NCBI GenBank assembly: GCA_013239625.1
Contig: MU053550.1
Coordinates: forward strand, 104,270-124,269
Origin: Lama guanicoe
Taxonomy: Eukaryota
Direction: 5' to 3'
Length of the DNA stretch: 20,000 nucleotides
Made by a program: the position numbers and the translations under genes. The notes under the pieces are model-generated. The model was not told where the DNA came from, ran no database searches, and saw only the letters and a program-made list of their open reading frames with translations. Shown in pieces: positions 1,660 through 19,747 of this stretch. Numbering within the stretch: the first letter of the stretch is position 1; every line of letters begins with the position of its first letter.

Positions 1660-4600
1660 CTCTATGAAGCAATGACAATGGCAAAATTTATCAAAATTAA
1701 CCTCTGTAGAACTCTGGAAATTAAATCAAGGCTTCCATCAATCCAGGGAATGTTTATTTGAAGAAAAAATACAGCTAAATATCCATAAAGATAGTGAGTT
1801 TTGTGACATTGTAACTTGATCTATCCCATCCCTGTATCCTCACCTAAATGGTGGCCATTAAAACCAATAGTCTCACAATCAAGGTAGAGGCAGAAGCGAT
1901 TTAAAGTTACCCAAAAAATCCGTCCCCAGAGAGCTGTCACTATTTGACCTATCACAAACTCATGCTGTGAAAACAGCCTGTCCCCAGAGTGTGTGTGGAA
2001 AACAATCAGCAGTGAGTATCTAACATTACAACTGCCTGAGGCAGTGGTACCAGTAGAGGCTAACTAGATGCTGACTAGGAAACTTAGAAGGCAAAATTGA
2101 GTAATGAGACATTCTGGGGGTGAAGGTAGGGTTGAAAAGCTCCAAAAATTTCTGAGAATTGTAGAAGGCAGTACACATGTGTGGAACATGGCAAGGAAAG
2201 ATCTGAGAAAACCTTAAGCCTTCAACTCTGGCTGAACTTGAGGTTCTGCATAAGAAAGAACTAAAGGCTACGGAAGAGCTGCAGACTGCATGCCGGTGCT
2301 GAGGGCATCCCTCAGCACACGGACACACAGCCACCTGGCAACAGCTCAAATGATTGTCTCCAGGCATTGAAAGAAATCACTATCCAATCATTATTACAGT
2401 GATGACAACTAGGCTTTCTGCACACACACCAATCTCATGGCCATGCATGATAAAAAATACAGACTTTACAGAATTTGTTCATGAAAGTAAATAAATAGCT
2501 GCAGCAGCAACGACAATGGAATCAACAATAAACCCTGGAGATGAGGAAAATCAGGCTTTCAGATCTGCCACATTGTAATATTTTAAATGTCCAGTTTTCA
2601 ACAGAAAGTTACAAGGTGTACAAAGAAACAGAAAAGTTTGGCCATAACAGAGGGGAAAAAGTAGTCAATAGAAACTCCCCGAGGAAGCCCAGACACTGGA
2701 CTTACTAGACAAAGACATAAATAAGCAATTACACATATGTTCAAAAAGCTAACAGAAACCATGCCTAAAGAATTAAATTATGTGAACATCTCATTGTACA
2801 GAGAGTGTCAATAAATAAAATTTATACTAAAAACCAACTATAAATTCTAGAGATACAAATATAATGACTAAAATGAAAGCTTCAATAAGAGATTTCTCTG
2901 TAGATATGAACTGGTTGAAGAAAAAGTCAGTTAACTTAAAACTACTGAGATTATCCAACCTGTGGAACAGAAAGAAAAAAGATTTAAAAAAAAATGAACA
3001 CTGTGTCAGAGATAGTTGGGACACCATCAACAATACCAATACACACATAATGGGAGCGCCAGAAGGAAGGAGAGAAAAAAAGGGGCAAAAAGAATATATA
3101 AAGAAATAGTGGCTGAAAACTTCCCAAATTTGATGAACACATTAATTTGTACAGCCCAGCAGCTCAACAAACTCCACGTGCTATAAACATAGAGACATCT
3201 AAAATAGGCACATCAGACTCAGTATGTCAAAAGACAAGAATGAAGGACCTTGACAGCAGAAAGAGAAAAGTGGCTCAACTTATAGAAAGTCTCCTCAGTA
3301 AGACAGTTGATTTCTCATCAAAAACCATGGAGAGCAGAAGACATTGGGATGGTATCGTCAAAGTGATAAAAGGAAAAGACTGTCACCAAGCATTTTATAG
3401 CCAGCAAAATGATCCTTCAAAAAAATTAAAGGAGAAATTAAGACACCCCTACAAAAACAAAATCTGAAAGAAACCATTGCTAGCAGGCCTGCCCTACAAG
3501 AAATATAAAGGATAGTCCAGCAGGTGTAAATGAGAGGACACTCGCCTGAAAAATAAAAAGCACTACTAGATGAGTAAAAAAATAAAACAATATAAATAAA
3601 GTATTACATGTAAATGTTTTGTTCTATTTGATGTAAAGGACAACTGCATAAAACAATACTTATGAAACTGTGTAGATGTGCTTATAATGCATAAAGGTGT
3701 TATTAGTATCACAGTGACAGCATGAGGAGGGGGAGGGAAAAGACTGATACCAAAGCAAAGTTTTGGTGTACTATTGAAATTAAGTTGGCATTCATGTGAA
3801 CTAGATTGTTTAAAAACAAGACTTTAATTATAATCTCCAGGGCAATGGAGGAGAACTAAGGAGGAGGAAGAGGAGGAGGAGGAGGAGGAGGAAAATATAA
3901 AATAAACAACAAATTAAAATGGCACACTTGAAAATGCCTACTTTGTACAAAAAAGTGTAGTAATAGAATAATGGGGAAAAAAAGACATATAGAAAGCACA
4001 TAGCAAATGTAACTTCAACCTGATAAGAAATTACATTAATGTAATTGAATTAAACATTCTAATCAAAATATTAAATGCAGAAATAAATGGAATAGAGAAT
4101 AGATGAACAACAGAGAAAAATCAACAAAAAGAAAAGTTGGTTCTTTGAAAAGATCAACAAAATTGACAAATTTTTAGCTAGTATTAAAAAAAAGAGAGAA
4201 GATTCAAATTACTAATATGAGAAATGAAATGAAGGATGTCACTACTGCCCTTACAAAAGGAACAAGGAATATAAGGGAATACCATGGATAATTATATAGC
4301 CAATAAATGAGATAATCTGGATGAAATGGATAAATTCCTAGAAGGACATAAATGGCTGAAGCCAATTCAAGGAGAAATAGAAAACTCAAATTATCCTACA
4401 GTAATTAGTGACGGAAATAGTAATTGAAAACATTCCCAAAAGGAAATGCTAGGCCCGTATGGCTTTGCTGGTGAATTCCATCAACTACTGAAAGAAAAAA
4501 CAAAAACAAACAAAAAAAGAAAACAATGCTTCACAAACTCATCTTAACATAAAGAGGTGGGAACACTTCCCAATTCATTCAATGAGACTAGTATCAAACT

Positions 4601-6920
4601 GATACCAAAACCAGACAATGGCAACACAAGAAAACTAAAAACTATCTCTTATGAATATAAATGCAAAAATCCTCAACAGAATACAAGCAAATCTAATCCA
4701 GTAACATATAAAATAGACCACAATTAAGTGGGATGTATCCAGGTATGCAAAGGCAGTTCAACATACAAAAGTCAATATATGTAATACACCATATTAATAG
4801 AAAAATGGATAAAAACTAGGAATAGAAGAGAACTTCCTTAACTTGACAGAGAACATCTATGAAAAACCAGGAGCAAAGATCATACATAATGTTGAAAGAC
4901 TGAATTATTTCCTCCCACAATCAACATTGTACTAGAGGTTCTAGTCAAAGCAACCAGACAAAGAAAATAAAGCCTCTAGATTAGAAAGAAAGAAGTAAAT
5001 CTGTTTTGATTCCAAATGACATGATATTATATATTGAAATCACAAGGAATCCACAAAGGAAAAAAAAGAGAGAAAAGAAAAAATATCCTATTAAAATTAA
5101 TAACCCAGTCTGACCAAAACTGTAAGACACAAATCAATATATAAAAAAGTAATTATATTTCTATACAACAGCAGTGAATAATCTAAAAATAAAATGAAGG
5201 AATCATTTTCATTTACAATAGTATCAAAAATAATAAAATACTTAGGAATATTAAGAAAAATATGTGGAATACTGAGAAAAATGTCTGAAACTTGAATATA
5301 GAAAACTAAAATACTACTGATAGAAGTTAAAAATGACCTAAAATAAATGGAAAGCTCTTCTGTTTCCATGGATCAGAAGCCTTATTATTTCTAGGATAGC
5401 AATTGTCCTCAAAATGACCTATAGATGCAATGCAACTCTGGCTTTTTGGCAGAAATGAACAAGTTGATCCTAAAACTAATATGGAAATGCAAGATACCCA
5501 GAATAGTCAAAACAATCTTGAAAAAGAACAAAGTTTTGAAGTTTCCAAATTCAAAACTGACTAACAAAACTGTAATCCATAGAGTGTGGTACTTGCATAA
5601 AGGACAGAAAAATAGATTTAGAGAAAATTATTGAGTCCATAAACAAACTCTTACACGTAGCCATTTAATTTTTGACAAAGGTGCCGTGACAATCCAATGG
5701 GGAAAAGATAATCTTTACAAAAATGATGCTGGGACGCCTGCACAAACAACTGGAAAGAAAGAAAATTGAACTTTTATCTTAACACCATTTAAGAAAGTTA
5801 ACTGAAAATAAATCACAGACCTGACACTATAAAACTTTTAGGAAATGAACAATGAGAAAATCTTCAGGACTTTGGATTACAAATACTTGTAATAAATGAC
5901 ACCAAAAGCACAAACAACAAAAGAAAAAAAATCAAGTAAACTGGACTTAAGTAAAATTAAAAACTTCTGTGCTTCAAAGGACTACATCAAGAAAGTAAGA
6001 AGACAATCCACAGAATGGATGAAATTATTTCCAATATTTTCCCTGATAAGGGACTTTTATCCAGAATAGACAAAGGAGACTTAAAACGTGACAATACAAA
6101 GACCAATTAAAATGGGCAAAGAATTTGAATAGATGTTTCTCCAAAGAAGACATAAGAATGGGAAATAAGCACATAAAAAGATGTTCAACATCAGTAGGCA
6201 TTAGGGAAACAGAAATCAAAAGCACAATGACATGCCAATTCATACCAACTAGGATGACAAATATATATGATATATGATATATAAATATGTATCTATAAAC
6301 CCGGTAATAAAAAGTGTTGAGGATGTGAAGAAACTGGACTCCTCATACATTACTACTGGAAATATAAAATGGTGCAGTCCCTTTAAAAACTATTTCAGCC
6401 ATTCCTCAAAATTTTAAAAATAGAATACATCCCAGCAATTCCATTTTCTGATATATCCTCAAGAAAACTGAAAGTATGTGTTCACACAAAAACTTGTCCA
6501 TGAGTATTTGCAGCAGAATTATTCATCATCAACTGATGGATGGATAAGCAATGTGGAGTATTTATAACAATGGCATATTACTTGAACACAAAAAGGAATT
6601 TGGGTACTGTTATATGCTACAGCATGGATGAGCCTAGACAACGTCACACTAAATGAAAGACAACAATCAAAAAAGGCAGCATACTGTATGGTTCTACTTA
6701 TATGAAATGCCCAGAACAGGCAAATCTGTAGAGGCAGAAAGTAGAGTGGTGGCTGCTGGGGGCTAAGGGAAAGGAAGGTTAGGGACTGACTTACTAAAGG
6801 GTACCTGTTCCTTTTGAGGGTGATGGCTACAAAGCCCTGAAATGTACTTAAAACCCTAATGCACACTTTCAAAGGCTGCATTTTATTGTATGTGAATTAT
6901 ACCTCCATAAAGCTGTTATT
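1660..6920 (+). mobile_element. Old near-full-length LINE-1 (L1M4-type 5' end, L1MB-type 3' end), decayed, with internal deletions
   Basis: 5'UTR ~1660-2610. ORF1 relic ~2615-3540 (RDSWDTINNTNTHIMGAPEG; DFSSKTMESRRHWDGIVKVIK). ORF2 relic from ~4000 (TTCTTTGAAAAGATCAACAAAATTGACAAA; KLILKLIWKCKIPRIVKTILKKNK). L1MB-like 3'UTR ends TGTATGTGAATTATACCTCCATAAAGCTGTTATT at 6920. Confidence 0.9.
3859..3892 (+). repeat. (GAG)n microsatellite within the L1 inter-ORF region
   Basis: AGGAGGAGGAAGAGGAGGAGGAGGAGGAGGAGGA read directly from the sequence. Confidence 0.9.
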
Positions 6921-7586
6921 CTTGAAGCTAAGCCCACCTATGGAGCAACTGGCATAGCACTGACTGCGGCATCCGGAGGGGGAGGGAACCACCTGCCCAC
7001 CACGAAGGAGAGCAGCACCTGACCCGGTGTTGGAGGGGCACGATATTCTTGCTGATGGACACTGTGAGTAGCACAGACGAGGGGGCCAACAGAGCAAGCT
7101 GAGTTCGTGAAACAGGGCAAAGACACAAAGACCTCTCAATAAAATCATTAAGAGCACACAGTCTCTAGGAGAAAACTTCTATTTTTAAAATCTTTCTATA
7201 TCTGTTTTATTTTCTATTATCTTTTTAATCTTTACTTTTTAAACAGTTCTATATGTTTACAGTTCTCATTTCATTTTTAATTCTCTTGGTTTTGATCTGT
7301 TATTGATTATTCACAGGTTTCATATATTGTGTTTTGATTTTTTTCTTCTTTTTGTTAAGGCTTTTAAAAGACTTCTCAACTTGACTGCTATTCTGCTTCA
7401 ACTTGCTCTTCTATTATTGATTATACACTGTTTTCAAACCTTCTTTTCCTCCATTCTTTTAAAATTCTCTCTCTCTCTCGTTTTTAAGTTATATTTCCAC
7501 ATAGTCTTTAGATAGATAAATAAATAAACTCCTTTAAGGACCATAATAGATAACTGATACTCCTTAAGCCACAGTGCCAGAGATAT

Positions 7587-8510
7587 ATGAGCAGTATGAA
7601 AAAGCAGAGGAAGTATTCCCAATTAAAAGAACAAGAGAAATCCCCTGAAAGTATGATCAATGAAATAGACATTGATGGCCTACTAGATCAAGATTTCAAA
7701 AAGGAAGTGATCAAATTACTGAAGGAACTAAAAGAGATAGTGTTTAGAGACATTAAATATGTCAAAAACAAAATAGAAACTATAAAGAAGAGCCAATTAG
7801 AATTGGTAAATTCATTGGCTGAAGAGATCTGAACTCTGTAAAAATCAGGCTAGATTATGCAGAGGAACGAATAAGTGACCTAGAAGACAGGACAACAGAA
7901 AGCACCCAATCAGAACAGCTGAGAGAAAAACAAATATAAAACAAAACAANNNNNNNNNNNNNNNNNNNNNNNNNNNNNNNNNNNNNNNNNNNNNNNNNNN
8001 NNNNNNNNNNNNNNNNNNNNNNNNNNNNNNNNNNNNNNNNNNNNNNNNNNNNNNNNNNNNNNNNNNNNNNNNNNNNNNNNNNNNNNNNNNNNNNNNNNNN
8101 NNNNNNNNNNNNNNNNNNNNNNNNNNNNNNNNNNNNNNNNNNNNNNNNNNNNNNNNNNNNNNNNNNNNNNNNNNNNNNNNNNNNNNNNNNNNNNNNNNNN
8201 NNNNNNNNNNNNNNNNNNNNNNNNNNNNNNNNNNNNNNNNNNNNNNNNNNNNNNNNNNNNNNNNNNNNNNNNNNNNNNNNNNNNNNNNNNNNNNNNNNNN
8301 NNNNNNNNNNNNNNNNNNNNNNNNNNNNNNNNNNNNNNNNNNNNNNNNNNNNNNNNNNNNNNNNNNNNNNNNNNNNNNNNNNNNNNNNNNNNNNNNNNNN
8401 NNNCCTTTAGAATAGAAGGAGAGATATAGATTTTCACAGAGAAGCAAAAACTAAAAGACTTTAGCAACACTAAACCCATGCTAAAAGAAATATTGAAAGG
8501 TCTACTCTAA
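7587..8510 (+). pseudogene. L1 ORF1p relic (frameshifted near 7825; spans an assembly gap)
   Basis: MSSMKKQRKYSQLKEQEKSPE...LDQDFKKEVIKLLKELKE. The C-terminal part after the gap reads FRIEGEI*IFTEKQKLKDFSNTKPMLKEILKGLL, ending at TAA 8508-8510. Confidence 0.85.
7950..8403. other. Assembly gap (N run)
   Basis: Run of N inside L1 ORF1. Confidence 1.
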
Positions 8511-8925
8511 ATAGAAAAGAAGTAGGATGCTACAGAAATGAGAACTCTAACTGGAAAGGTGATAACTACCATGAATTACAAATAGAATAAACATGAAATT
8601 GTAAAAGAAGACATCTAAATCATTGAGTGGGAGAGGGAAGCAAGAAAATATAGAGTATTTTTTCTTTCTTCTTCTTCTGTTTTTTTAATTTTTTGTTCTC
8701 GGTAGGATGGGTTTGAGATTACATTACTATCTGTTTAGTACACACAGTTAGAGTAATTGGTTAACAGACTTACAAAAAAAGTGTAACCACAAGCCAAAAA
8801 CTTACAAGGGAGTCACAAAAACTAAATACAATCCAAGATAATACAAAGGAAATTTAGCATACCACAGAAGGAAGAAGAAAGGAACAGAGAAGAAATACCA
8901 AATCAACTGCAAAAATAAGTTCAAA

Positions 8926-11900
8926 ATAGCAATAAACACTCATCTATCATTAATTACTATAAATGTTAATGGACTAAATGCTCCAGTCAAAAGACAGAGT
9001 GGCAGACTGGATAATAAATCAAGAACCTTCAATACACTGTATACAAGGGACACACTTTAGGGAGAAGGACACATATAGATTGAGAGTAAATGGGCGGAAA
9101 AGGATAATCCATGAAAGTGGAAATGCCAGAAAAGCAGGTGCAGCAGTACAGATTTCAGACAAAATAGACGTTAAAACAAAGGCCATAAAGAAAGATAAAT
9201 AAAGACATTTTATGATTAAAGGAGCAATACAAGATGAGGGTATTATAATCATTAATATATATGCACCCAACATGAGCACCTAAGTACATAAAACAACTAC
9301 TAACAGAGATAAAGGGGGAAATTGATGGGAATACAATCAATGTCAGAAATTTTAACACCACATTAACATCACTAGACAGAACTTCCAGACAGAAAATAAA
9401 TAAGGCAACAGAGAAATTAAATGATACAAGAGAAAAAATAGATTTGGTGGATATTTTCAGAGCATTACAACCCCCCAAAATAGGATATACATTATTTTCA
9501 AGTGCACGTGGAACATTTACTAAGATTGGTCATGTACATGGACACAAAAGAAACCTCAACAATTTTAAGAAGATAGAAATTATCTCAAACATCTTTATTG
9601 ACCACAAAGCCACTGAAACCAGAAATCAACTACAGAGAAACAAAGGAGAAATAAAGGAAAGCATAGAGATTAAATAACATGCTATTAAAAAATCAATGGG
9701 TCAATGATGAAATCAAAGTTGAAATGAAACTATACCTTGAGACGAAAATGAAAACACAACCACACAAAACTTATGGGACGCGGCAAAACAGTGCTAAGAG
9801 GAAAGTTTAGGGCGATACAGGCCTTCCTCAGAAAAGAAGAACCATATGAAATAAACAATCTAACCCACCAGCTAAAAGAACTAGAAACAGAAGAACAAAA
9901 ACACCCAAAAGTCAGCAGAAGGAAGGAAATAATAAAGATCAGGGAGGAAGTAAATAAAGTAGACTTTAAAAAAATAAAGAAAATAATCAATCAAACCAAA
10001 AGCTAGATTTTTGAAAGAGTAAATTAAATCAACAAGCCTCTGGCCAAACTCACAAAGAAGAAAAAAGAGAGAGCACAAATTTGCAAAATAAGAAAGGAAA
10101 ATGGAGAAATTACAACAAATAACATAGAAATACAGAATATCATATGAAAATATTATGAAAAACTACATGAAAAAAATGAATAACCTAGAGGAGATGGACA
10201 AGTTTCTGGAAACATACAGTCCACCATGACTGAATCAAGAAGAAACCGACCACTTGAACAAACCGATCACTAGGAATGAAATTGAATTAACAATAAAAAT
10301 AATTCCCTACAAATAAAAGTCCAGACTGGACAGCTTCATCGGGTAATTCTACCACACATACAAAGAAGAACTCATACCAGTCCTTCTCAAACTCTTCCAG
10401 AAGATTGAAAAGAAGTAATATTCCCAAACTCATTCTATGAAGCCACCATCACCCTGATACCAAAACCAGGCAAAAACACCAGCAAAGAAGAGAATTAGAG
10501 ACCAATATCACTGATGAACAGAGATGCAAAAAGTCCTTACCAAAATACTAGCAAATAAAATCCAACAGCACATAAAAAAGATTGTATATCATGCTCAGGT
10601 GGGGTTCATCTCAGGGACACAAGGGTGGTTCAACACATGCAAATCAATCAATGTAATACTTCACATCAACAAGAAAAAGGACAAAAACCACATGATTATC
10701 TCAAAAGATGCAGAAAAGCTTTTGATAAAATTCAACACCCATTTATGATAAAAATTCTCACCAATGTGTGTATTGAGGGAACATAACTCAACATCATAAA
10801 AGCTATATATGGCAAACCTACAGCCAGCATAGCACTCAAGGGTGAAAAACTCAAAAACTTCTCACTAAAATCTGGGACAAGACAAAGATGCCCACTATCA
10901 CCACTCCTATTCATCATAGACATGGAAGTCCTGGATAGAGCAATCAAGCAAGTAAGAAAAGTAAAAGGGGTCTAAATTGGAAAAGAAGAGGTAATAGTGT
11001 CACTATATGCAGATGACACAATACTATATCTAGAAAACCCTAAAATGTCCACAAAAAGCTACTAGATCTGATCGAAGGATTTATCAAGGTAGCAGGTTAC
11101 AAGATTAAGGTTCAAAAATCAGTAGCATTTATTTACACTAATGATGAATCAACAGAAAAAGAAGTAAAGAAACAATCCCCTTTAAAATAGCACTGAAAGT
11201 AATAAAATATCTAGGAATAAATGTAACCACAGAGGTAAGAGAATTATACACAGAAAACTATAAACCATTGGTGAAGGAAATTAAAAAAAAATTTAAAAAA
11301 TGGAAAGGTATCCCATTCCCTTGGATTGCAAGAATCAATATTGTTAAAATGGTCACACTGCCCAAGGCAATCTACAGATTTAATGCAATCCCTATCAAAT
11401 TACCCCGGACATATTTCATAGAACTAGAACAAATCACAATAATATTTATATGGAACCAACAAAGACATAGAACTTCCAGAGCATTAATGAAGAAAAAAAG
11501 AAAGAGCCTGGAGGAATAACCCTCCCAGACTTTAGACAATACTATAGAGTTACAGTCATCAACACAGTATGGTATTGGTACAAAAACAGACATATAGACC
11601 AATGGAACAGAATAGAGAGCACAGAAATGAACCCACAAACTTTTGGTCAACTAATCTTCGAGAAAGGAGGCAAGAATATACAATGGAATAAAGACAGTCT
11701 CTTCAGCAAGATAAACATAAGACAAGATACAATAAACGTCCTAGAAGAAAATACAGGCAAAATATCTGACATACATCTCAGAAATATTCCCCTAGGGCAG
11801 TCTACCCAAGCAATAGAAATTAAAGCAAGAATAAAAAAATGGGACCTAATGAAACTTACAAGCTTCTGCACAGCAAAGGACACCATAAGTAAAACAAAAA

Positions 11901-12573
11901 GACAACCTACAGAATGGGAGAATATTTTTGCAAATGAAACTGACAAAGGCTTGATCTCCAGAATATATAAGAAGCTCATATGACTTCATAAGAAACAACC
12001 AAATAACCCAATCCAAACATGGGCAGAAGACCTAAACAATCAATTCTCCAAGGAAGACATACAAATGATCAATGGGTACAGAAAAAAAGGCTCAGTATCA
12101 CTAATTATCAGAGAAATACAAATCAAAATTACAATGAGGTATCACCTCAAACAAGTCAGAATGGCCATCATTCAAAAATCCACAAATGTCAAATGCTAGA
12201 GAGGCTGTGGATAAAGGGGAAACTCCTACACTTCGGGTGGGAATGCAGTTTGGTGCAGCCACTGTGGAAAACAGTATTGAGTTTCCTCAAAATACTAGGA
12301 ATAGACTTGCCATATGACCCAGGAATCCTGCTCCTGGGCATATATCCTGAAGGAACCCTACTTCAGGATGACACCTGCACCCCAATGTTCATAGCAGTAC
12401 TATTTACAATAGCAAAGACATGGAGACAGCCTAAATGTCCATCAGTGGATGACTGGCTAAAGAAGAGATATATTTATACAATGGAATACTACTCGGCCAT
12501 AAAAACTGAAAATATAGGGCCACTTGCAACAACATGGATGCTCCTGGAGAATGTCATTCTAAGTTAAGTAAGC
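8926..12573 (+). pseudogene. L1 ORF2p relic (endonuclease/reverse transcriptase), disrupted
   Basis: Start codon decayed to ATA at 8926, then (I)AINTHLSLITINVNGLNAPVKR. RT motifs [29 protein letters not shown] and YADD (11006-11017). C-terminal LVQPLWK...[14 protein letters not shown]...CTPMFIAVLFTIAKTW. Confidence 0.92.
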
Positions 12574-12601
12574 ACGGTAACAAGGAATAAAGAGAAGTTA
12601 C

Positions 12602-12736
12602 CTCCAGGTACAATTATTTTGATTAAAATATCCACACAGAAAGCAAGTCACCCCCACGACTGCTGCCAGGAGGAGCATCTGAGTGTAATAGCCCAGCCAA
12701 GCAAAGAAGATTTCGACCTTCTCTCCGTAGAATTTC
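12602..12736 (-). CDS. ANO6: ANO6-like exon encoding TM1 (equivalent to human exon 8 by recollection); 135 nt, open frame, phase 2-2
   Basis: cttctgtctttctgcAG|G AAA TTC TAC…TGG AG|GTaact. Translates (R)[44 protein letters not shown](S); recalled human ANO6 is [46 protein letters not shown]. Confidence 0.9.
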
Positions 12737-12807
12737 CTGCAGAAAGACAGAAGGAAGTTTCAGAAGACACGCATAATCACTCTGTAGCTTCATCCTCATG
12801 TTAATTT

Positions 12808-12931
12808 ATTTTTTCTTTTTGGGGGGGCATAATTAGGTTTATTTATTTGTTTTTAAATGGAGGCATTGGGGATTGAACCCGGGACCTTATGCATGCTAGG
12901 CATGAACTCTACCACTGAGCTATACCCTCCC
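12808..12931 (-). mobile_element. Camelid tRNA-derived SINE (Vic-1 type)
   Basis: Reverse complement reads GGGAGGGTATAGCTCAGTGGTAGAGTTCATGCCTAGCATGCATAAGGTCCCGGGTTCAATCCCCAATGCCTCC with A and B boxes, followed by an AAATAAACCTAATT tail. TSD TCATGTTAATTT (12796-12807) / TCATATTAATTT (12936-12947). Confidence 0.92.
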
Positions 12932-14339
12932 TCCATCATATTAATTTCTGATTCTAAATCAAGGGGGCTTTAAGTTTAAACTTCTGACTCAATTCACACT
13001 TAAAACATATGCGTTTTCATAGCATCCTCCAAATTCTACCATGAAATAAGAAGTATTTTATGTATTATAGAAGTACAGATTACTGGTTCACCTGCTGAAG
13101 AGAGATAAATGAGAACAGAGCAAAGGAGGGGACGAGGCCTACTCTGGAGCAGATGCAGGGGATCATCACCACTCACTGGACAGTCTGGCACATTCAACAA
13201 ATCCCCCCAAATTTCATTATTAACAGGCTTGACACAAGTGGACATCAACAAGTGGCTCAGTCATCTGCTCCTGCCTTATCTCGGGAACTTCCCTGGAGCA
13301 AATGCATCGTAAACCACAGATAATAAGGAAATGTCTGATAATGATAACAACTGGGAGTGCAATGTCTCTCTGACAAAATATTTATAAAACTCATTGTGGG
13401 AATGGGAGAGGGCAGGAGGGATGTGACTGAGGATGGTACTGCCCTGTATTCTTTGTATCTAGCACGTCTGTTATTCCTAGGTTTTAAAAACACTTCAATG
13501 TTTCTCAGTTAATCTGGAGTAGATGGAACAGGCCAGGGAGGCAAGATTAGAAGAAAGGAGGCAGGACATGAAGCGGTGCCAGACTGGTCTTGAAAGGGAG
13601 AAAGACACAGAGAGGCAGACACAGACGGTTTAGGAATGAGGCAGAACAATGAGACGGCGGCTCAGATGTGTCTTGCTGTTGCTGATACTTCCCTCAATTG
13701 GCTCATTTCTGACTCTGCAGTGCTTGGTAAAACCTGCGGATTTCTTCAGCTCTGAGTTCTCTCTGAGGCTCCCGGCTCAGTCTGGAGTTCCCCCCCTTGG
13801 GGGACTCAGCTCTGAGAACAGCCTGGGGTCCTGGGAAACTTCACGCAGGAACCCCCTTGGGCTGGACCAGCGCTCACAGGGCTGCTGTGAGACCAGCTCC
13901 ATCGTCAGAGACCTGGGCGTGGACCATTCCATGGGGAAAAGGGCTGAGCCCGATGCCAAATCAGATAGGAGGGACAAAGTGTGTTCATTCTCATGTGACT
14001 GAGCTTTGTGGCCTGGCTCACTGATGGCAGGCTCAGGTTGGTGTCTGGCAGAGAAAACCCTCGCAATGGGTTTGAGATGTCTTGGACTCTTTCTTGTTAA
14101 GCTTTTTGTAATACATTCTTATCAACTATCCATCCTGAAAATGCCACATTCAAAACTGAAAGAATGTTAGAAGTTGCCTGCTCCAACTGCCCAATGGTAA
14201 ACACACCCTGCTACAGTTAGAGAGCTGGTCAGGCAGCCTCTGCCTGGATTTTAACAGTGACGGGGAGTTCATTATTTACAAAGGTTACATGTCGGTAAGA
14301 AGGTCAGACAGAATTTTTGAACCTTAAACAGATGTCTGC

Positions 14340-14449
14340 NNNNNNNNNNNNNNNNNNNNNNNNNNNNNNNNNNNNNNNNNNNNNNNNNNNNNNNNNNNNN
14401 NNNNNNNNNNNNNNNNNNNNNNNNNNNNNNNNNNNNNNNNNNNNNNNNN
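14340..14449. other. Assembly gap (N run)
   Basis: Run of N. Confidence 1.
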
Positions 14450-14454
14450 CATAA

Positions 14455-15075
14455 TTCATTTTGATTTCTTTTTATCAAAGTTATACCATACATTCATTAA
14501 AGAGTCAAATAGTTCTCGAACACCGATTCTAAAAAGGAGCAGTTCCCAACAACCGCCCCATTTCCTGGCCAGAAGCAAGCATGTTCAGCTCCTACTGCTG
14601 ACTCCTATAATAATTACTCCCTTTCTCTGACTAATATCCTTGTAACGCAGCCTACTGACTTTTTCAGCTTTATGTATCACCTAATTAACTTTGTATTTTG
14701 GAAAATGAGGATTAAGCTCTCTTTCAAACCCCATCTCATCTACACATCCAAAACTTCATTCTTCCAACCTTTTGATACAATTACATTATAATTTTGATCA
14801 GCTCAGTAGCCTTGCTTTACATTATTAGCTCTCTGTACAGACTGTTCACAGCTGTTGCAAGTTGGCTGCTAGGCTTACTTTTTTCTTCCCTACTTTTTTT
14901 TCCTGGAGTTAATAATTGTCTTGGTGGTTCATAGGTTAGATTTCTGTGCACTTAACAACTCAACTCCAGACCTTCCCCTAATGAATAACTTTTTCAATAC
15001 TTTCCAATACATTGTCTACAAACTTCATCTCCTTGAATAAATCTCTTCAGATCTCCTTCAATCTTGATTAACGAC
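14455..15075 (-). mobile_element. HAL1 (half-L1) 3' region, ancient
   Basis: TTAAAGAGTCAAATAGTTCT, GAAAATGAGGATTAAGCTCTCTTTCA and TTCCTGGAGTTAATAATTGTCTT match recalled antisense HAL1 3' consensus. Confidence 0.7.
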
Positions 15076-15347
15076 ATGCTAGTCCTGTCACAGACCTCAA
15101 GGGGCCACTAGTGGGAAGAAACAAAGGGAACACATGGACCAGGGGCAGGGAACAATCAACATATTTTCCTTAGCACAACATATTTAAAATAGTGGGAAAA
15201 TTGTTTTCTTTACAAACACACACACAAATCCCAAAAGCCCATAATGAATGATTAAAGAGCCATCAAACCCATTGCCCTGCCATCAAATTCTGTATAACAA
15301 AACAAAAATAACAGAAGGAAAATATCATATAAATATGAACCTCCAGC

Positions 15348-15452
15348 GGGAGGGGGTACACTCAGTGGCAGAGTGTGTGCTCAGCATGCATAAGGTCTTA
15401 GATTCAATCTTCAGTACCTCCATTAGAAAAAAAAATTTAAAAAGAAAGAAAA
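15348..15452 (+). mobile_element. Camelid tRNA-derived SINE (Vic-1 type), diverged
   Basis: GGGAGGGGGTACACTCAGTGGCAGAGTGTGTGCTCAGCATGCATAAGGTCTTAGATTCAATCTTCAGTACCTCCATT plus an A-rich tail. Homologous to 12808-12931. Confidence 0.88.
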
Positions 15453-15509
15453 CTGTATCAACTTTAAATATTTACATATGTACAAACATCCTCTTTTAAA
15501 ACTGTGCTC

Positions 15510-16290
15510 TACAGGATAACCCGGGTTAATGAGAAAGTGCCTTTTCATGACTGTGATCCTGCTGATAATTAAGGGAGGAAATTAGTGTATGACCACATGA
15601 AATAAAGTCCCTTATAAAATAATGATCCCAGGTGACAATCATTATTGGCTGCTGTCATCACAAAAAAGAGAGTCAACTGGAAATTATGGACCTTATGACA
15701 GGAGTACAAAACTTCACATTACAAGTATTCTTGCACAAAGTTGAACCTCAGTCAGATCAAGCTTTTAGGGGAGGATCAAATCACTTAGCTAAAGCCAATA
15801 CATAGGATGGAGAAACAAGTATAACACCACAGGGTAGAATGAAATCAGCCAAACAGGAAATAGAGAAACCCCATTGAGGGGGGTTTCTCTATTTCAAGGA
15901 AAATGAGAAAAAGGAAAATTATAGATTAGAACCCACTTGAGAGATATGCTAGCTGCAATGTCTGAACCTAGTCTAGATCCTAATTTCAACCTCAAAGTTA
16001 CTTAAAAGTGTATTTTTGTGACAATCAGGAAATTATTTTGTAACCCTAAAAAAATAAGGAATATTCCAATTGTATTTGAAACAGACCTTGTCATTTCACT
16101 AATGAAAGGTTAAGCTATGTAGGATTGTCTTCAAAATGATCCCGTAGTGGGGGAGGGGAGGAGGTAGAGATGAAAGATGCAACAACAGTGACTCTGAGTT
16201 TATAATTCTGGAGCTGGGTGACTGATACAGGCAGGCTGGCTATACTGTTCTCTCTACTTCTGTACATGTTTGAATCTTTCCATAAAATCT
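15510..16290 (+). mobile_element. Ancient L1 3' end (L1MC4/L1MC5-like)
   Basis: AAGTATTCTTGCACAAAGTTGAACCTCAGTCAGATCAAGC; TTTTTGTGACAATCAGGAAATT; terminal GGAGCTGGGGTGA…TATACTGTTCTCTCTACTTCTGTACATGTTTGAATCTTTCCATAAAA. Confidence 0.7.
15857..15895. repeat. Perfect inverted repeat, 16-bp arms and 7-nt loop
   Basis: GAAATAGAGAAACCCC (15857-15872) - ATTGAGG - GGGGTTTCTCTATTTC (15880-15895). Confidence 0.95.
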
Positions 16291-16409
16291 GAAACAAACA
16301 AAAAGACATCAGTGTTTCAAAACCCTCACTTGGAAGGTTAAGAGGATTGCCCAAGTAGGTGGGCACCTGCATGGGGCACTGAGATGAGAAAGAACAGGCA
16401 CCTGTCTCC

Positions 16410-17130
16410 AGGCCGACCTGGGGCTGCCTTGACCCTCCTCTTCTACTCACCATCCACAGCCAGCCCATAACTGCATCCTGTCAACTCCACTCCCCAAACG
16501 CATTCCTCCTGGCTCCCACCATCTCTCATCTGGCCCACTCCAAGAGCCTCCTACCCGGCCTCCCTGCTTCCTGGGTCCCTGTAATTCATTCTTCACATTA
16601 TCTTTGCAAAATTTGAGTGATAGAAAATTATTTAGTGCTTAAAATATCATGGCTGCTTCTCACTGCGCTTAGAGTCTACACTCCTTTCCGTGCTCCTGAT
16701 GCCCTTCTAAACCTTGCGTCTCATCCCTCTCACCAGCGCTGGCTCCAGTATCTCCTCAAACCTGCTGAGCACATTTGTGCCTCGGGGCCAATGGACAAGC
16801 TACCTCTATTCCTGGGGCGACTTTTCCCAGATTCTCAAAGTCCAACCTCCTTATCACCATCTCAGCTCACATGTAACCTACTCAAAGATAGCTTTCTTGA
16901 CTCACTTCCCCCCAAGTCTCCCATCTAAACACTGTGGTATTTCCTTCATTTCAATCTGACATTGTTTCCTTATTCGCTCGATTATTTTTGTTTGCTCGGT
17001 TGTCCTTGGCTTCCCTCCCCCCAGCAGCCTTGCCCAAAGAGCATAAGCTCCCGGGGAGCAGCCGGCACTGCTGCTCTGAGAAGACACATGCTGAGCGTGA
17101 CATTACAGTCACATGGTGTAGTGAAATGAT
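16410..17130 (+). mobile_element. L2 (L2a-like) 3' portion
   Basis: Pyrimidine-rich tract with L2 motifs CACCATCTCTCATCTGG…AGCCTCCTACCCGGCCTCCCTGCTTCC, TGCCTCGGGGCC, TCTCAGCTCACATGTAACCT and ATAAGCTCCCGGGGAGCAG. Confidence 0.75.
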
Positions 17131-17207
17131 GTCGAACAGCAGATACAGCAAAACAGTGAGAATTTCTCTCTTATTTTATAATTTAAGTGAAATTTAACAT
17201 TTACTCC

Positions 17208-17610
17208 TGTTTAATGAAGAATTTGGTAGGTCTTTGGTCCCAGTTCCTGGAGGGCAATACCTAAAGCCTTGAAATTTCCCATGATAGGAGTGTCTTTGCT
17301 ATTCATGGTGGAACCTTGGATGTCTTGGGTTCATGAGATGACTCAGGATGGGGGCTGGCCAGCCAGAGACACCGACCATGTGATTAGAGGAGTGGGGCTT
17401 TGAGCTTTGTGACAAGTGAGTGGCCACCAGGAGAGGAAGGGGCTCAGTGGTTAGGGCTAAGAAAAGGTTTGACTTACAGTTAGGGTTTGGGTTAGCCATG
17501 TCGGTAGTGACCCAATAAATCATGGCTTTGTTATAAAGCCTCCAGTAAAAACTTGGGACAACAAAGCTCAGAGCTCCTGTGAGCTTCCTGGTTGGTAGCA
17601 CTCTTGGAGG
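17208..17610 (+). mobile_element. MER21-type LTR (ERVL), 3'-truncated
   Basis: TG start; AAGAATTTGG…GGTCTTTG…AATTTCC…TGATAGGAGTGTCTTTGCTATTCAT…GACTCAGGATGGGGGCTGG…ACCATGTGATTAGAGG…GAGCTTCCTGGTTGGT match recalled MER21B/C consensus. Confidence 0.8.
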
Positions 17611-17681
17611 ACTGTCACCCTCAGATGCCATGAGGGCAACCCTGGGCCCTTCCCACTGGAGTGCTCTCCACAGAAGCTCAC

Positions 17682-17796
17682 CTGATGAGATCTAAGGGCT
17701 GCTTCTTGTGTATGCTTCGAGGAGGATCCCATTTCCTTTACAGAAGGCCCTGTTCACTGGTGCATCTGAGGTCCTCTGACGGAAGCTGAAGTTGCA
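17682..17796 (-). pseudogene. ANO6: Disabled ANO6-like exon (equivalent to human exon 7 by recollection); 115 nt
   Basis: Translates CNFS/(frameshift)PSEDLRCTSEQGLL*RKWDPPRSIHKKQPLDLI(R); recalled human is CKFRRQSEDPSCPNERYLLYREWAHPRSIYKKQPLDLIR. The donor CAG|GTGAGC is intact, the acceptor reads cttcccAC, and there is a TAA at 17738-17740. Confidence 0.88.
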
Positions 17797-17942
17797 GTGG
17801 GAAGCAGAAGCAAACATGTGAGTGAAACTATCACCACGTGATCACATGTTCTGTTGATAAAATTTGGTGCTAACACTTCATGGTCATTTGTAAATAAGGG
17901 GCCCTTACTTGCCAGAAGGGATGGAGGTACCATAAAAGTTTT

Positions 17943-19551: not shown

Positions 19552-19607
19552 NNNNNNNNNNNNNNNNNNNNNNNNNNNNNNNNNNNNNNNNNNNNNNNNN
19601 NNNNNNN
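19552..19607. other. Assembly gap (N run)
   Basis: Run of N. Confidence 1.
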
Positions 19608-19624: not shown

Positions 19625-19747
19625 TTCTGGTGGGGGGTGGGGAGGTAATTAGGGTTATTTGTCTATTTTAGAGGAGGTGTTGGGGGCTGAACCCAGGACC
19701 TTATGCATGCTAAGCATGCACCCCGTCAGTTATACTGCACCCTCCCC
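19625..19747 (-). mobile_element. Camelid tRNA-derived SINE (Vic-1 type), diverged
   Basis: GGGGAGGTAATTAGGGTTATTT…GGAGGTGTTGGGGGCTGAACCCAGGACCTTATGCATGCTAAGCATGCAC…CCCTCCCC, homologous to 12808-12931. Confidence 0.88.

What the first reader, a model, noticed from the sequence alone, without database searches (positions are those of the whole stretch)
12602..17796. Hidden, degenerating intron-containing copy of ANO6 (TMEM16F scramblase) in a probable camelid genome
Seen: two minus-strand exons absent from the ORF track, joined in the correct phase. The upstream one has AC at the expected acceptor, is 115 nt long (a phase 0 to phase 2 exon must be 3n+2 nt; human is recalled as 116) and has a TAA at 17738-17740. 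Known: ANO6 is the Ca2+-activated phospholipid scramblase whose loss causes Scott syndrome, and it is normally a strongly conserved mammalian gene. Inference: the retained intron rules out a processed pseudogene. This is therefore either a segmental/tandem duplicate that decayed (more likely) or lineage-specific inactivation of ANO6 itself, which would matter for platelet and erythrocyte phosphatidylserine exposure.
Basis: partly seen in the sequence, partly recalled or inferred. Interest (0 to 1): 0.75.

Follow-up and report, generated by a model that had tools for sequence, protein, structure and literature searches.

The report
Decayed ANO6 duplicate, camelid-wide family
This stretch holds two real but broken exons of the ANO6 lipid-scramblase gene that carry the same one-base loss as many extra partial copies annotated in camels and alpaca, so it is most likely one decayed duplicate and not the loss of the working gene, for which camelids have intact records.

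Summary
In detail: two minus-strand ANO6 exons (17796-17682, 115 nt; 12736-12602, 135 nt), 4,945-nt intron, AC at the upstream acceptor, one base missing, TAA at 17740-17738. The gene-loss reading fails. Intact ANO6 is on record for alpaca, wild camel and dromedary, identical over these 82 residues, and the window differs from it at 18. The same searches returned 39 camelid 'ANO6-like' models on many scaffolds; 16 of the 16 that cover the exon start show the window's one-base shift (in three different frames), against 0 of 99 ordinary ANO6 records, and they share its substitutions R>Q, Y>G, H>P, Y>F, I>V. So the shift is an old lesion of a duplicate family that predates the camel-alpaca split, not an assembly error. 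The AC and TAA appear only in this copy and were not checked in reads. This assembly's own ANO6 and copy number were not tested (no genome held). The scan found this family before on other DNA, including two other pieces of this genome (about 44 to over 100 copies, unverified here). I found no paper on it. Ordinary kind of object: a duplicated pseudogene; mild interest as an apparently undescribed camelid amplification.

The parts
17682..17796 (-). Exon A, ANO6-derived (exon 7 by recalled numbering), 115 nt instead of 116; one base lost near codon 5; in-frame TAA; GT donor kept
17797..17798 (-). Dead splice acceptor (AC instead of AG). None of the 7 AG dinucleotides within 60 nt upstream or 40 nt downstream gives an open phase-0 exon
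17782..17786 (-). Site of the one-base loss, shared with 16 of 16 camelid ANO6-like models that cover it
17738..17740 (-). TAA at a tyrosine found in 99 of 99 ANO6 records; not seen in other duplicate models
12602..12736 (-). Exon B, ANO6-derived (exon 8 by recalled numbering; first transmembrane stretch), open, AG/GT intact, 6 of 44 residues changed against camelid ANO6
12737..17681 (-). Retained intron, 4,945 nt, with two short interspersed repeat copies and a 110-nt N gap
17883..17933 (-). Upstream intron sequence whose translations (8 and 7 residues, exact) appear as pseudo-exons in two other duplicate models (P0096, P0089): intron DNA is shared across copies
6950..12567 (+). Broken, near full-length L1-type element, antisense to the exons, ending about 35 nt beyond the exon B donor (boundaries approximate; L1 identity mostly from recall)
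   Evidence: weak RVT_1 match at 10518-10745, E 2.5e-4, below the curated cut-off

Best explanation
The window holds two broken ANO6 exons with their intron, and it is most likely one non-coding copy of a partial ANO6 segment that was duplicated as DNA in a camelid ancestor and then spread to many chromosomes. Shown: the exons, the intron, the lesions, intact camelid ANO6 records, and the one-base loss and five substitutions shared with camel and alpaca ANO6-like models. Inferred: a founder copy lost the base and coding constraint before camels and alpaca split; repeated segmental duplication dispersed it; each copy then decayed on its own (here AC, TAA and about nine base changes in exon A; in most Camelus models a second shift in exon B that this copy lacks). 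A transcript through this copy would stop in exon A, or go out of frame if exon A were skipped, so it is predicted to give no scramblase.
For: Intact ANO6: 932-aa sequence recorded for C. ferus and C. dromedarius (P0101), 940-aa alpaca model (P0022); 0 differences between them over the 82 residues, 18 against the window. One C. ferus accession series holds both ANO6 and ANO6-like models on three other scaffolds (43.7 Mb, 29.3 Mb, 43 kb); six dromedary scaffolds in one series and six alpaca scaffolds carry such models. 16 of 39 models cover the exon start and 16 of 16 read through the same shift, in three frames (about 14 loci; three are isoforms of one alpaca locus); 0 of the other records do. 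R16Q 4 of 5, Y17G 5 of 5, H25P 5 of 5 duplicates, 0 of 99 ANO6 records; Y2F and I7V in exon B likewise 0 of 99. Off-frame reading of exon B is 20 of 20 identical to P0090. Window and duplicates keep E at exon-A codon 8 where camelid ANO6 has K in both camel and alpaca, so the copy branched before that change. Tree on 30 columns: window plus 5 duplicates, 99/95.
Against: The window's own assembly was not available, so its intact ANO6, synteny and copy number were not seen. No database model matches this copy closely: at least 6-11 base changes in 81-114 nt of exon A to each. Gene models are biased to open frames and canonical splice sites, so they cannot show how common the AC and TAA are. The tree is short, its bootstrap unsettled, and loss of constraint can draw rows together. 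Comparison was by peptides, not DNA.
Confidence: 0.93

Rival explanations
1. This is the true ANO6 locus, inactivated in this camelid lineage (unitary pseudogene).
For: Disabling lesions and retained intron are real in the assembly; the intact gene of this very assembly was not seen.
Against: Intact ANO6 is recorded in alpaca, wild camel and dromedary, identical over these exons, while the window differs at 18 of 82 residues and carries the marks of the duplicate family.
Confidence: 0.01
2. The copy is a real duplicate, but part of its apparent decay (AC, TAA, the cluster of C>A changes) is low-coverage consensus error or a collapse of several near-identical copies in a gapped draft assembly. 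This is compatible with the best explanation and changes only the private lesions.
For: Three N gaps in the window; 9 of 115 exon-A bases differ from the state that best fits other copies and 4 of the 9 are C>A within 40 nt, while an off-frame stretch of exon B is 20 of 20 identical to other copies.
Against: One alpaca model (P0138) appears to have lost the same acceptor G and shares the window's base at 17784, which points to real subfamily divergence (inferred from peptides). The one-base loss cannot be such an error, being shared across four species.
Confidence: 0.2
3. The copy belongs to a transcribed chimeric gene family in which ANO6 fragments serve a new role (short membrane peptide or regulatory RNA), with exon B kept open by selection.
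For: RefSeq lists several isoforms for some loci (up to X8), which usually rests on transcript evidence (general knowledge); six dromedary models of one series are nearly identical; exon B here is open with both splice sites.
Against: Models use the same exon in three different frames and most Camelus ones shift frame inside exon B, as expected of noise on dead DNA; exon B here changes five residues that are invariant in 99 of 99 ANO6 records. No expression of this copy was shown.
Confidence: 0.05

Closest known systems
ANO6 / TMEM16F (Ca2+-activated phospholipid scramblase; solved structures e.g. 6P46, 8SUN)
   Same: Source of both exons; exon order, phase and splice positions kept.
   Different: Frameshift, stop, dead acceptor and changes at invariant residues; only two exons in the window; cannot encode the protein.
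Camelid RefSeq/GenBank 'anoctamin-6-like' models (e.g. XP_072804400.1, XP_064340276.1, XP_032317713.1, XP_032330143.1, XP_010964325.1)
   Same: Same one-base loss, same derived residues, shared intron-derived pseudo-exon peptides.
   Different: This copy has its own AC and TAA and lacks the second shift in exon B seen in most Camelus models; no model is its exact match.
Duplicated (unprocessed) pseudogenes in segmental duplications; pseudogene-rich repetitive blocks of alpaca chromosomes 11, 17, 36 (PMC13751797, passages read)
   Same: Multi-copy, fragmented, degenerating gene pieces in a camelid genome, ascribed to segmental duplication followed by decay.
   Different: Those blocks (NEK10, FMN2, ATF5, ABHD17A, ACTB, uS3m) are local clusters reported absent or reduced in camels; the ANO6 family is dispersed, is present in both camels and alpaca, and ANO6 does not occur in that paper's main text.
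Primate core duplicons in mosaic segmental duplications (recalled; NPIP, GOLGA8, TBC1D3)
   Same: Lineage-specific dispersed amplification of a gene fragment, with chimeric gene models.
   Different: Those often keep open frames and show selection; here the founder was already frameshifted and no function is shown.

Membership tests
Duplicated (unprocessed) pseudogene | Keeps parent exon-intron structure | tested here: met
   Two exons in order and phase, 4,945-nt intron
Duplicated (unprocessed) pseudogene | Disabling lesions | tested here: met
   One-base loss, TAA, AC acceptor; no nearby AG rescues the frame
Duplicated (unprocessed) pseudogene | Intact parent present in camelid genomes | tested here: met
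   P0101, P0022, P0004
Duplicated (unprocessed) pseudogene | Intact parent present in this very assembly | not testable with these tools
   No genome held
Unitary pseudogene (ANO6 gene loss) | Is the orthologue, with no working counterpart in the lineage | tested here: not met
   Groups with duplicates, 18 of 82 residues from camelid ANO6, which is intact
Processed pseudogene | Introns removed | tested here: not met
   Intron and splice sites retained
Functional ANO6/TMEM16F | Open frame through the exons | tested here: not met
   Phase-0 reading stops at codon 35; ANO6-register reading stops at codon 20
Other anoctamin paralogue | Better match to ANO1-5 or ANO7-10 | tested here: not met
   Searches return ANO6; solved structures cover only some paralogues
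Segmental duplication (over 1 kb, over 90% identity) | Long high-identity DNA match to other loci | tested here: inconclusive
   Only peptide-level sharing of exons and of intron at 17933-17883; no DNA of other copies in hand
Core duplicon (primate type) | Mosaic flanks, transcription and selection | not tested
   No second gene found in this window (0 non-L1 Pfam hits in 118 frames of 50 aa or more); mosaic structure comes from earlier scan notes only

The most novel reading that the evidence does not exclude
Camelids carry their own core duplicon: an ANO6 fragment, frameshifted once in the common ancestor, fused to pieces of other genes, still amplifying and transcribed as chimeric RNAs or short membrane peptides with a function, the first such system outside primates to be built on a scramblase gene.
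Probability: 0.1. Interest if true: 0.6.

Novelty: new member of a known kind. Interest (0 to 1): 0.24.

Why it matters
It removes the striking claim (camelids without ANO6). What is left is a lineage-wide amplification of a dead ANO6 fragment that my searches did not find in print. It matters in practice: dozens of similar copies can corrupt read mapping, variant calls, copy-number and expression estimates for ANO6 in camels and alpacas, and produce false 'anoctamin-6-like' genes. The shared frameshift is a clean marker for dating and counting the family.

Tried and rejected
Whole-genome search: no genome held. Read-level check of the AC, the missing base, the TAA and the 17682/12736 junction: not obtained, so this stays open. 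Run search for window 12400-14300: 20 of 24 listed rows hold part of the stretch, 14 DNA-type or untyped runs from four coded organisms at 0.36-0.44 of 199 words, none at half or more, 6 RNA runs at 0.07-0.21; none was laid, the stretch contains a repeat, so this is not used as evidence for expression or copy number. Further ANO6 exons in the window: none; whether the next exon lies beyond the L1 or is deleted is unknown. Other genes in the window: 1 weak RVT_1 hit in 118 frames (frames overlapping exon B left out). KLHL2 origin of the front of P0131/P0137/P0161: recalled resemblance only, no such hit among solved structures. Rescue by another acceptor: 0 of 7. Look-alike stretches in the scan index by sequence: none. 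Literature: ANO6+camel+pseudogene 0 papers; ANO6+alpaca 1, unrelated by title; 'anoctamin-6-like' 0; top 20 have no ANO6 mention; TMEM16F+camel+duplication 2, KLHL2+ANO6 18, camel+erythrocyte+scramblase 13, none on this by title or abstract start. PMC13751797 and PMC6598621: passages, 0 ANO6 in main text, supplements not seen and they could list such loci. PMC8605555: passages, does not name the camelid SINE. PMC13663546: one supplement searched, 0 hits. Elephant row dropped from the tree (pattern not found); one of 100 ANO6 records dropped for a 36-residue segment.

Full report
Observation. On the minus strand, exon A runs 17796-17682 (115 nt) with AC in place of the acceptor AG, a GT donor and TAA at 17740-17738; exon B runs 12736-12602 (135 nt), open, with AG and GT; the intron is 4,945 nt. 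Intact camelid ANO6 hits exon B at E about 3e-22 and exon A at about 3e-9. Exon B's 82 database hits are ANO6 where named, apart from one record named anoctamin 5 and some hypothetical or unnamed ones, and exon A matches only Anoctamin-6 among solved structures. The normal exon is 116 nt: 99 of 100 records have 38 residues before the split codon. No further ANO6 exon and no other gene was found in the window. Exon numbers 7 and 8 are recalled.

Is ANO6 lost? No. A 932-aa ANO6 is recorded for wild camel and dromedary (P0101) and a 940-aa model for alpaca (P0022). Over the 82 residues of these two exons they are identical, while the window differs at 18, more than any of 99 mammalian ANO6 records does (median 5, maximum 14; isoforms included). 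Many of the changes hit columns invariant in 99 of 99. The window's own assembly could not be searched, so this step rests on other camelid assemblies.

What it is. The protein searches returned 39 truncated camelid models, most named 'anoctamin-6-like' or uncharacterized, one unnamed: on six dromedary scaffolds in one accession series and three in an older one, three wild-camel scaffolds, six alpaca scaffolds and Bactrian records. Sixteen cover the start of exon A, and all sixteen read through the same one-base loss as the window, some in the ANO6 frame extended backwards, some in the phase-0 frame running off register, one in the third frame. None of the other records shows such a reading. 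They also share R16Q (4 of 5), Y17G and H25P (5 of 5) in exon A and Y2F and I7V in exon B, none found in 99 ANO6 records. An off-frame reading of exon B is 20 of 20 identical to a dromedary model and 23 of 24 to a wild-camel one. Two models use intron-derived pseudo-exons whose peptides occur exactly at 17933-17910 and 17903-17883, so intron DNA is shared too. A tree on 30 columns joins the window with five duplicates at 99/95, rough because short. Window and duplicates keep E at codon 8 where camel and alpaca ANO6 both have K. Inference: one DNA-level duplication on the camelid stem, an early frameshift, then dispersal. PMC13751797 (abstract start) puts camelid independent evolution at more than 11 million years, a lower bound for the founder. 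No non-camelid mammal gave such a model, but pseudogenes without models are invisible to these searches.

How it works. It most likely does nothing as a protein gene. With the acceptor dead, none of 7 nearby AGs gives an open phase-0 exon; the natural junction would stop at codon 35; skipping a phase 0-to-2 exon shifts the frame. A near full-length antisense L1-type element ends about 35 nt past the exon B donor (identity mostly recalled). The AC and TAA are not seen in other models, but models favour open frames. Nine of 115 exon-A bases differ from the state best fitting other copies, four of them C>A within 40 nt; with three N gaps in the window, some of this private decay could be assembly error. 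I could not check it in reads. The verdict does not depend on it, because the shared base loss already breaks the frame.

Earlier notes of the scan. After I had formed the duplicate-family reading, the index showed notes on two other pieces of this genome and on other camelid-type genomes describing an amplified KLHL2-ANO6(-POFUT2) mosaic block of about 44 to over 100 copies. I confirmed multiplicity and camelid spread from database models, not the copy numbers or the mosaic structure. The front of P0131, P0137 and P0161 resembles KLHL2 from recall only (one search gave no such hit).

Compared with what is known. It meets the tests for a duplicated (unprocessed) pseudogene and fails those for a unitary or processed pseudogene. 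PMC13751797 (passages read) reports other pseudogene-rich duplicated blocks in alpaca (NEK10, FMN2, ATF5, ABHD17A) without mention of ANO6 in the main text; its supplements were not seen. Nine paper searches found no report of camelid ANO6 duplicates, in a library that lacks most subscription papers.

Verdict. Real feature, ordinary mechanism, gene loss rejected. New member of a known kind; interest 0.24. The boldest open reading, a transcribed and functional camelid core duplicon, gets probability 0.1.

Noticed in passing
window 12846-12919, 15361-15434, 19666-19721: Three copies of a short tRNA-like interspersed repeat, 77-82% alike, two in one orientation and one opposite; taken from recall to be the camelid SINE.
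   Followed up: partly
window about 6950-12567 (+), and 2800-6350: A near full-length broken L1-type element right behind exon B, and older L1 fragments further on; most of 2800-12570 is L1-like.
   Followed up: partly
window 17765-17727: Four C>A changes in 40 nt relative to other copies, one of which makes the TAA: a local mutation cluster or consensus error.
   Followed up: partly
window 13500-14300: GC-richer stretch in the intron with overlapping stop-free frames of 113-120 aa, no Pfam hit; possibly an LTR remnant.
   Followed up: no
P0086, P0090, P0092-P0095: Six dromedary models on six scaffolds are identical over exon A and almost so elsewhere, and share a second frameshift in exon B with a wild-camel model: a recent Camelus burst of copies.
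   Followed up: partly
P0131, P0134, P0137, P0151, P0159, P0161: Camel and alpaca models begin with a non-ANO6 peptide that resembles KLHL2 from recall, in line with the scan's earlier fusion notes; unconfirmed.
   Followed up: partly
P0132, P0157: Alpaca models named 'anoctamin-5-like' look like ANO6-duplicate models and seem misnamed.
   Followed up: no
window 7950-8403, 14340-14449, 19552-19607: Three N gaps (454, 110, 56 nt): a draft, gapped assembly.
   Followed up: no
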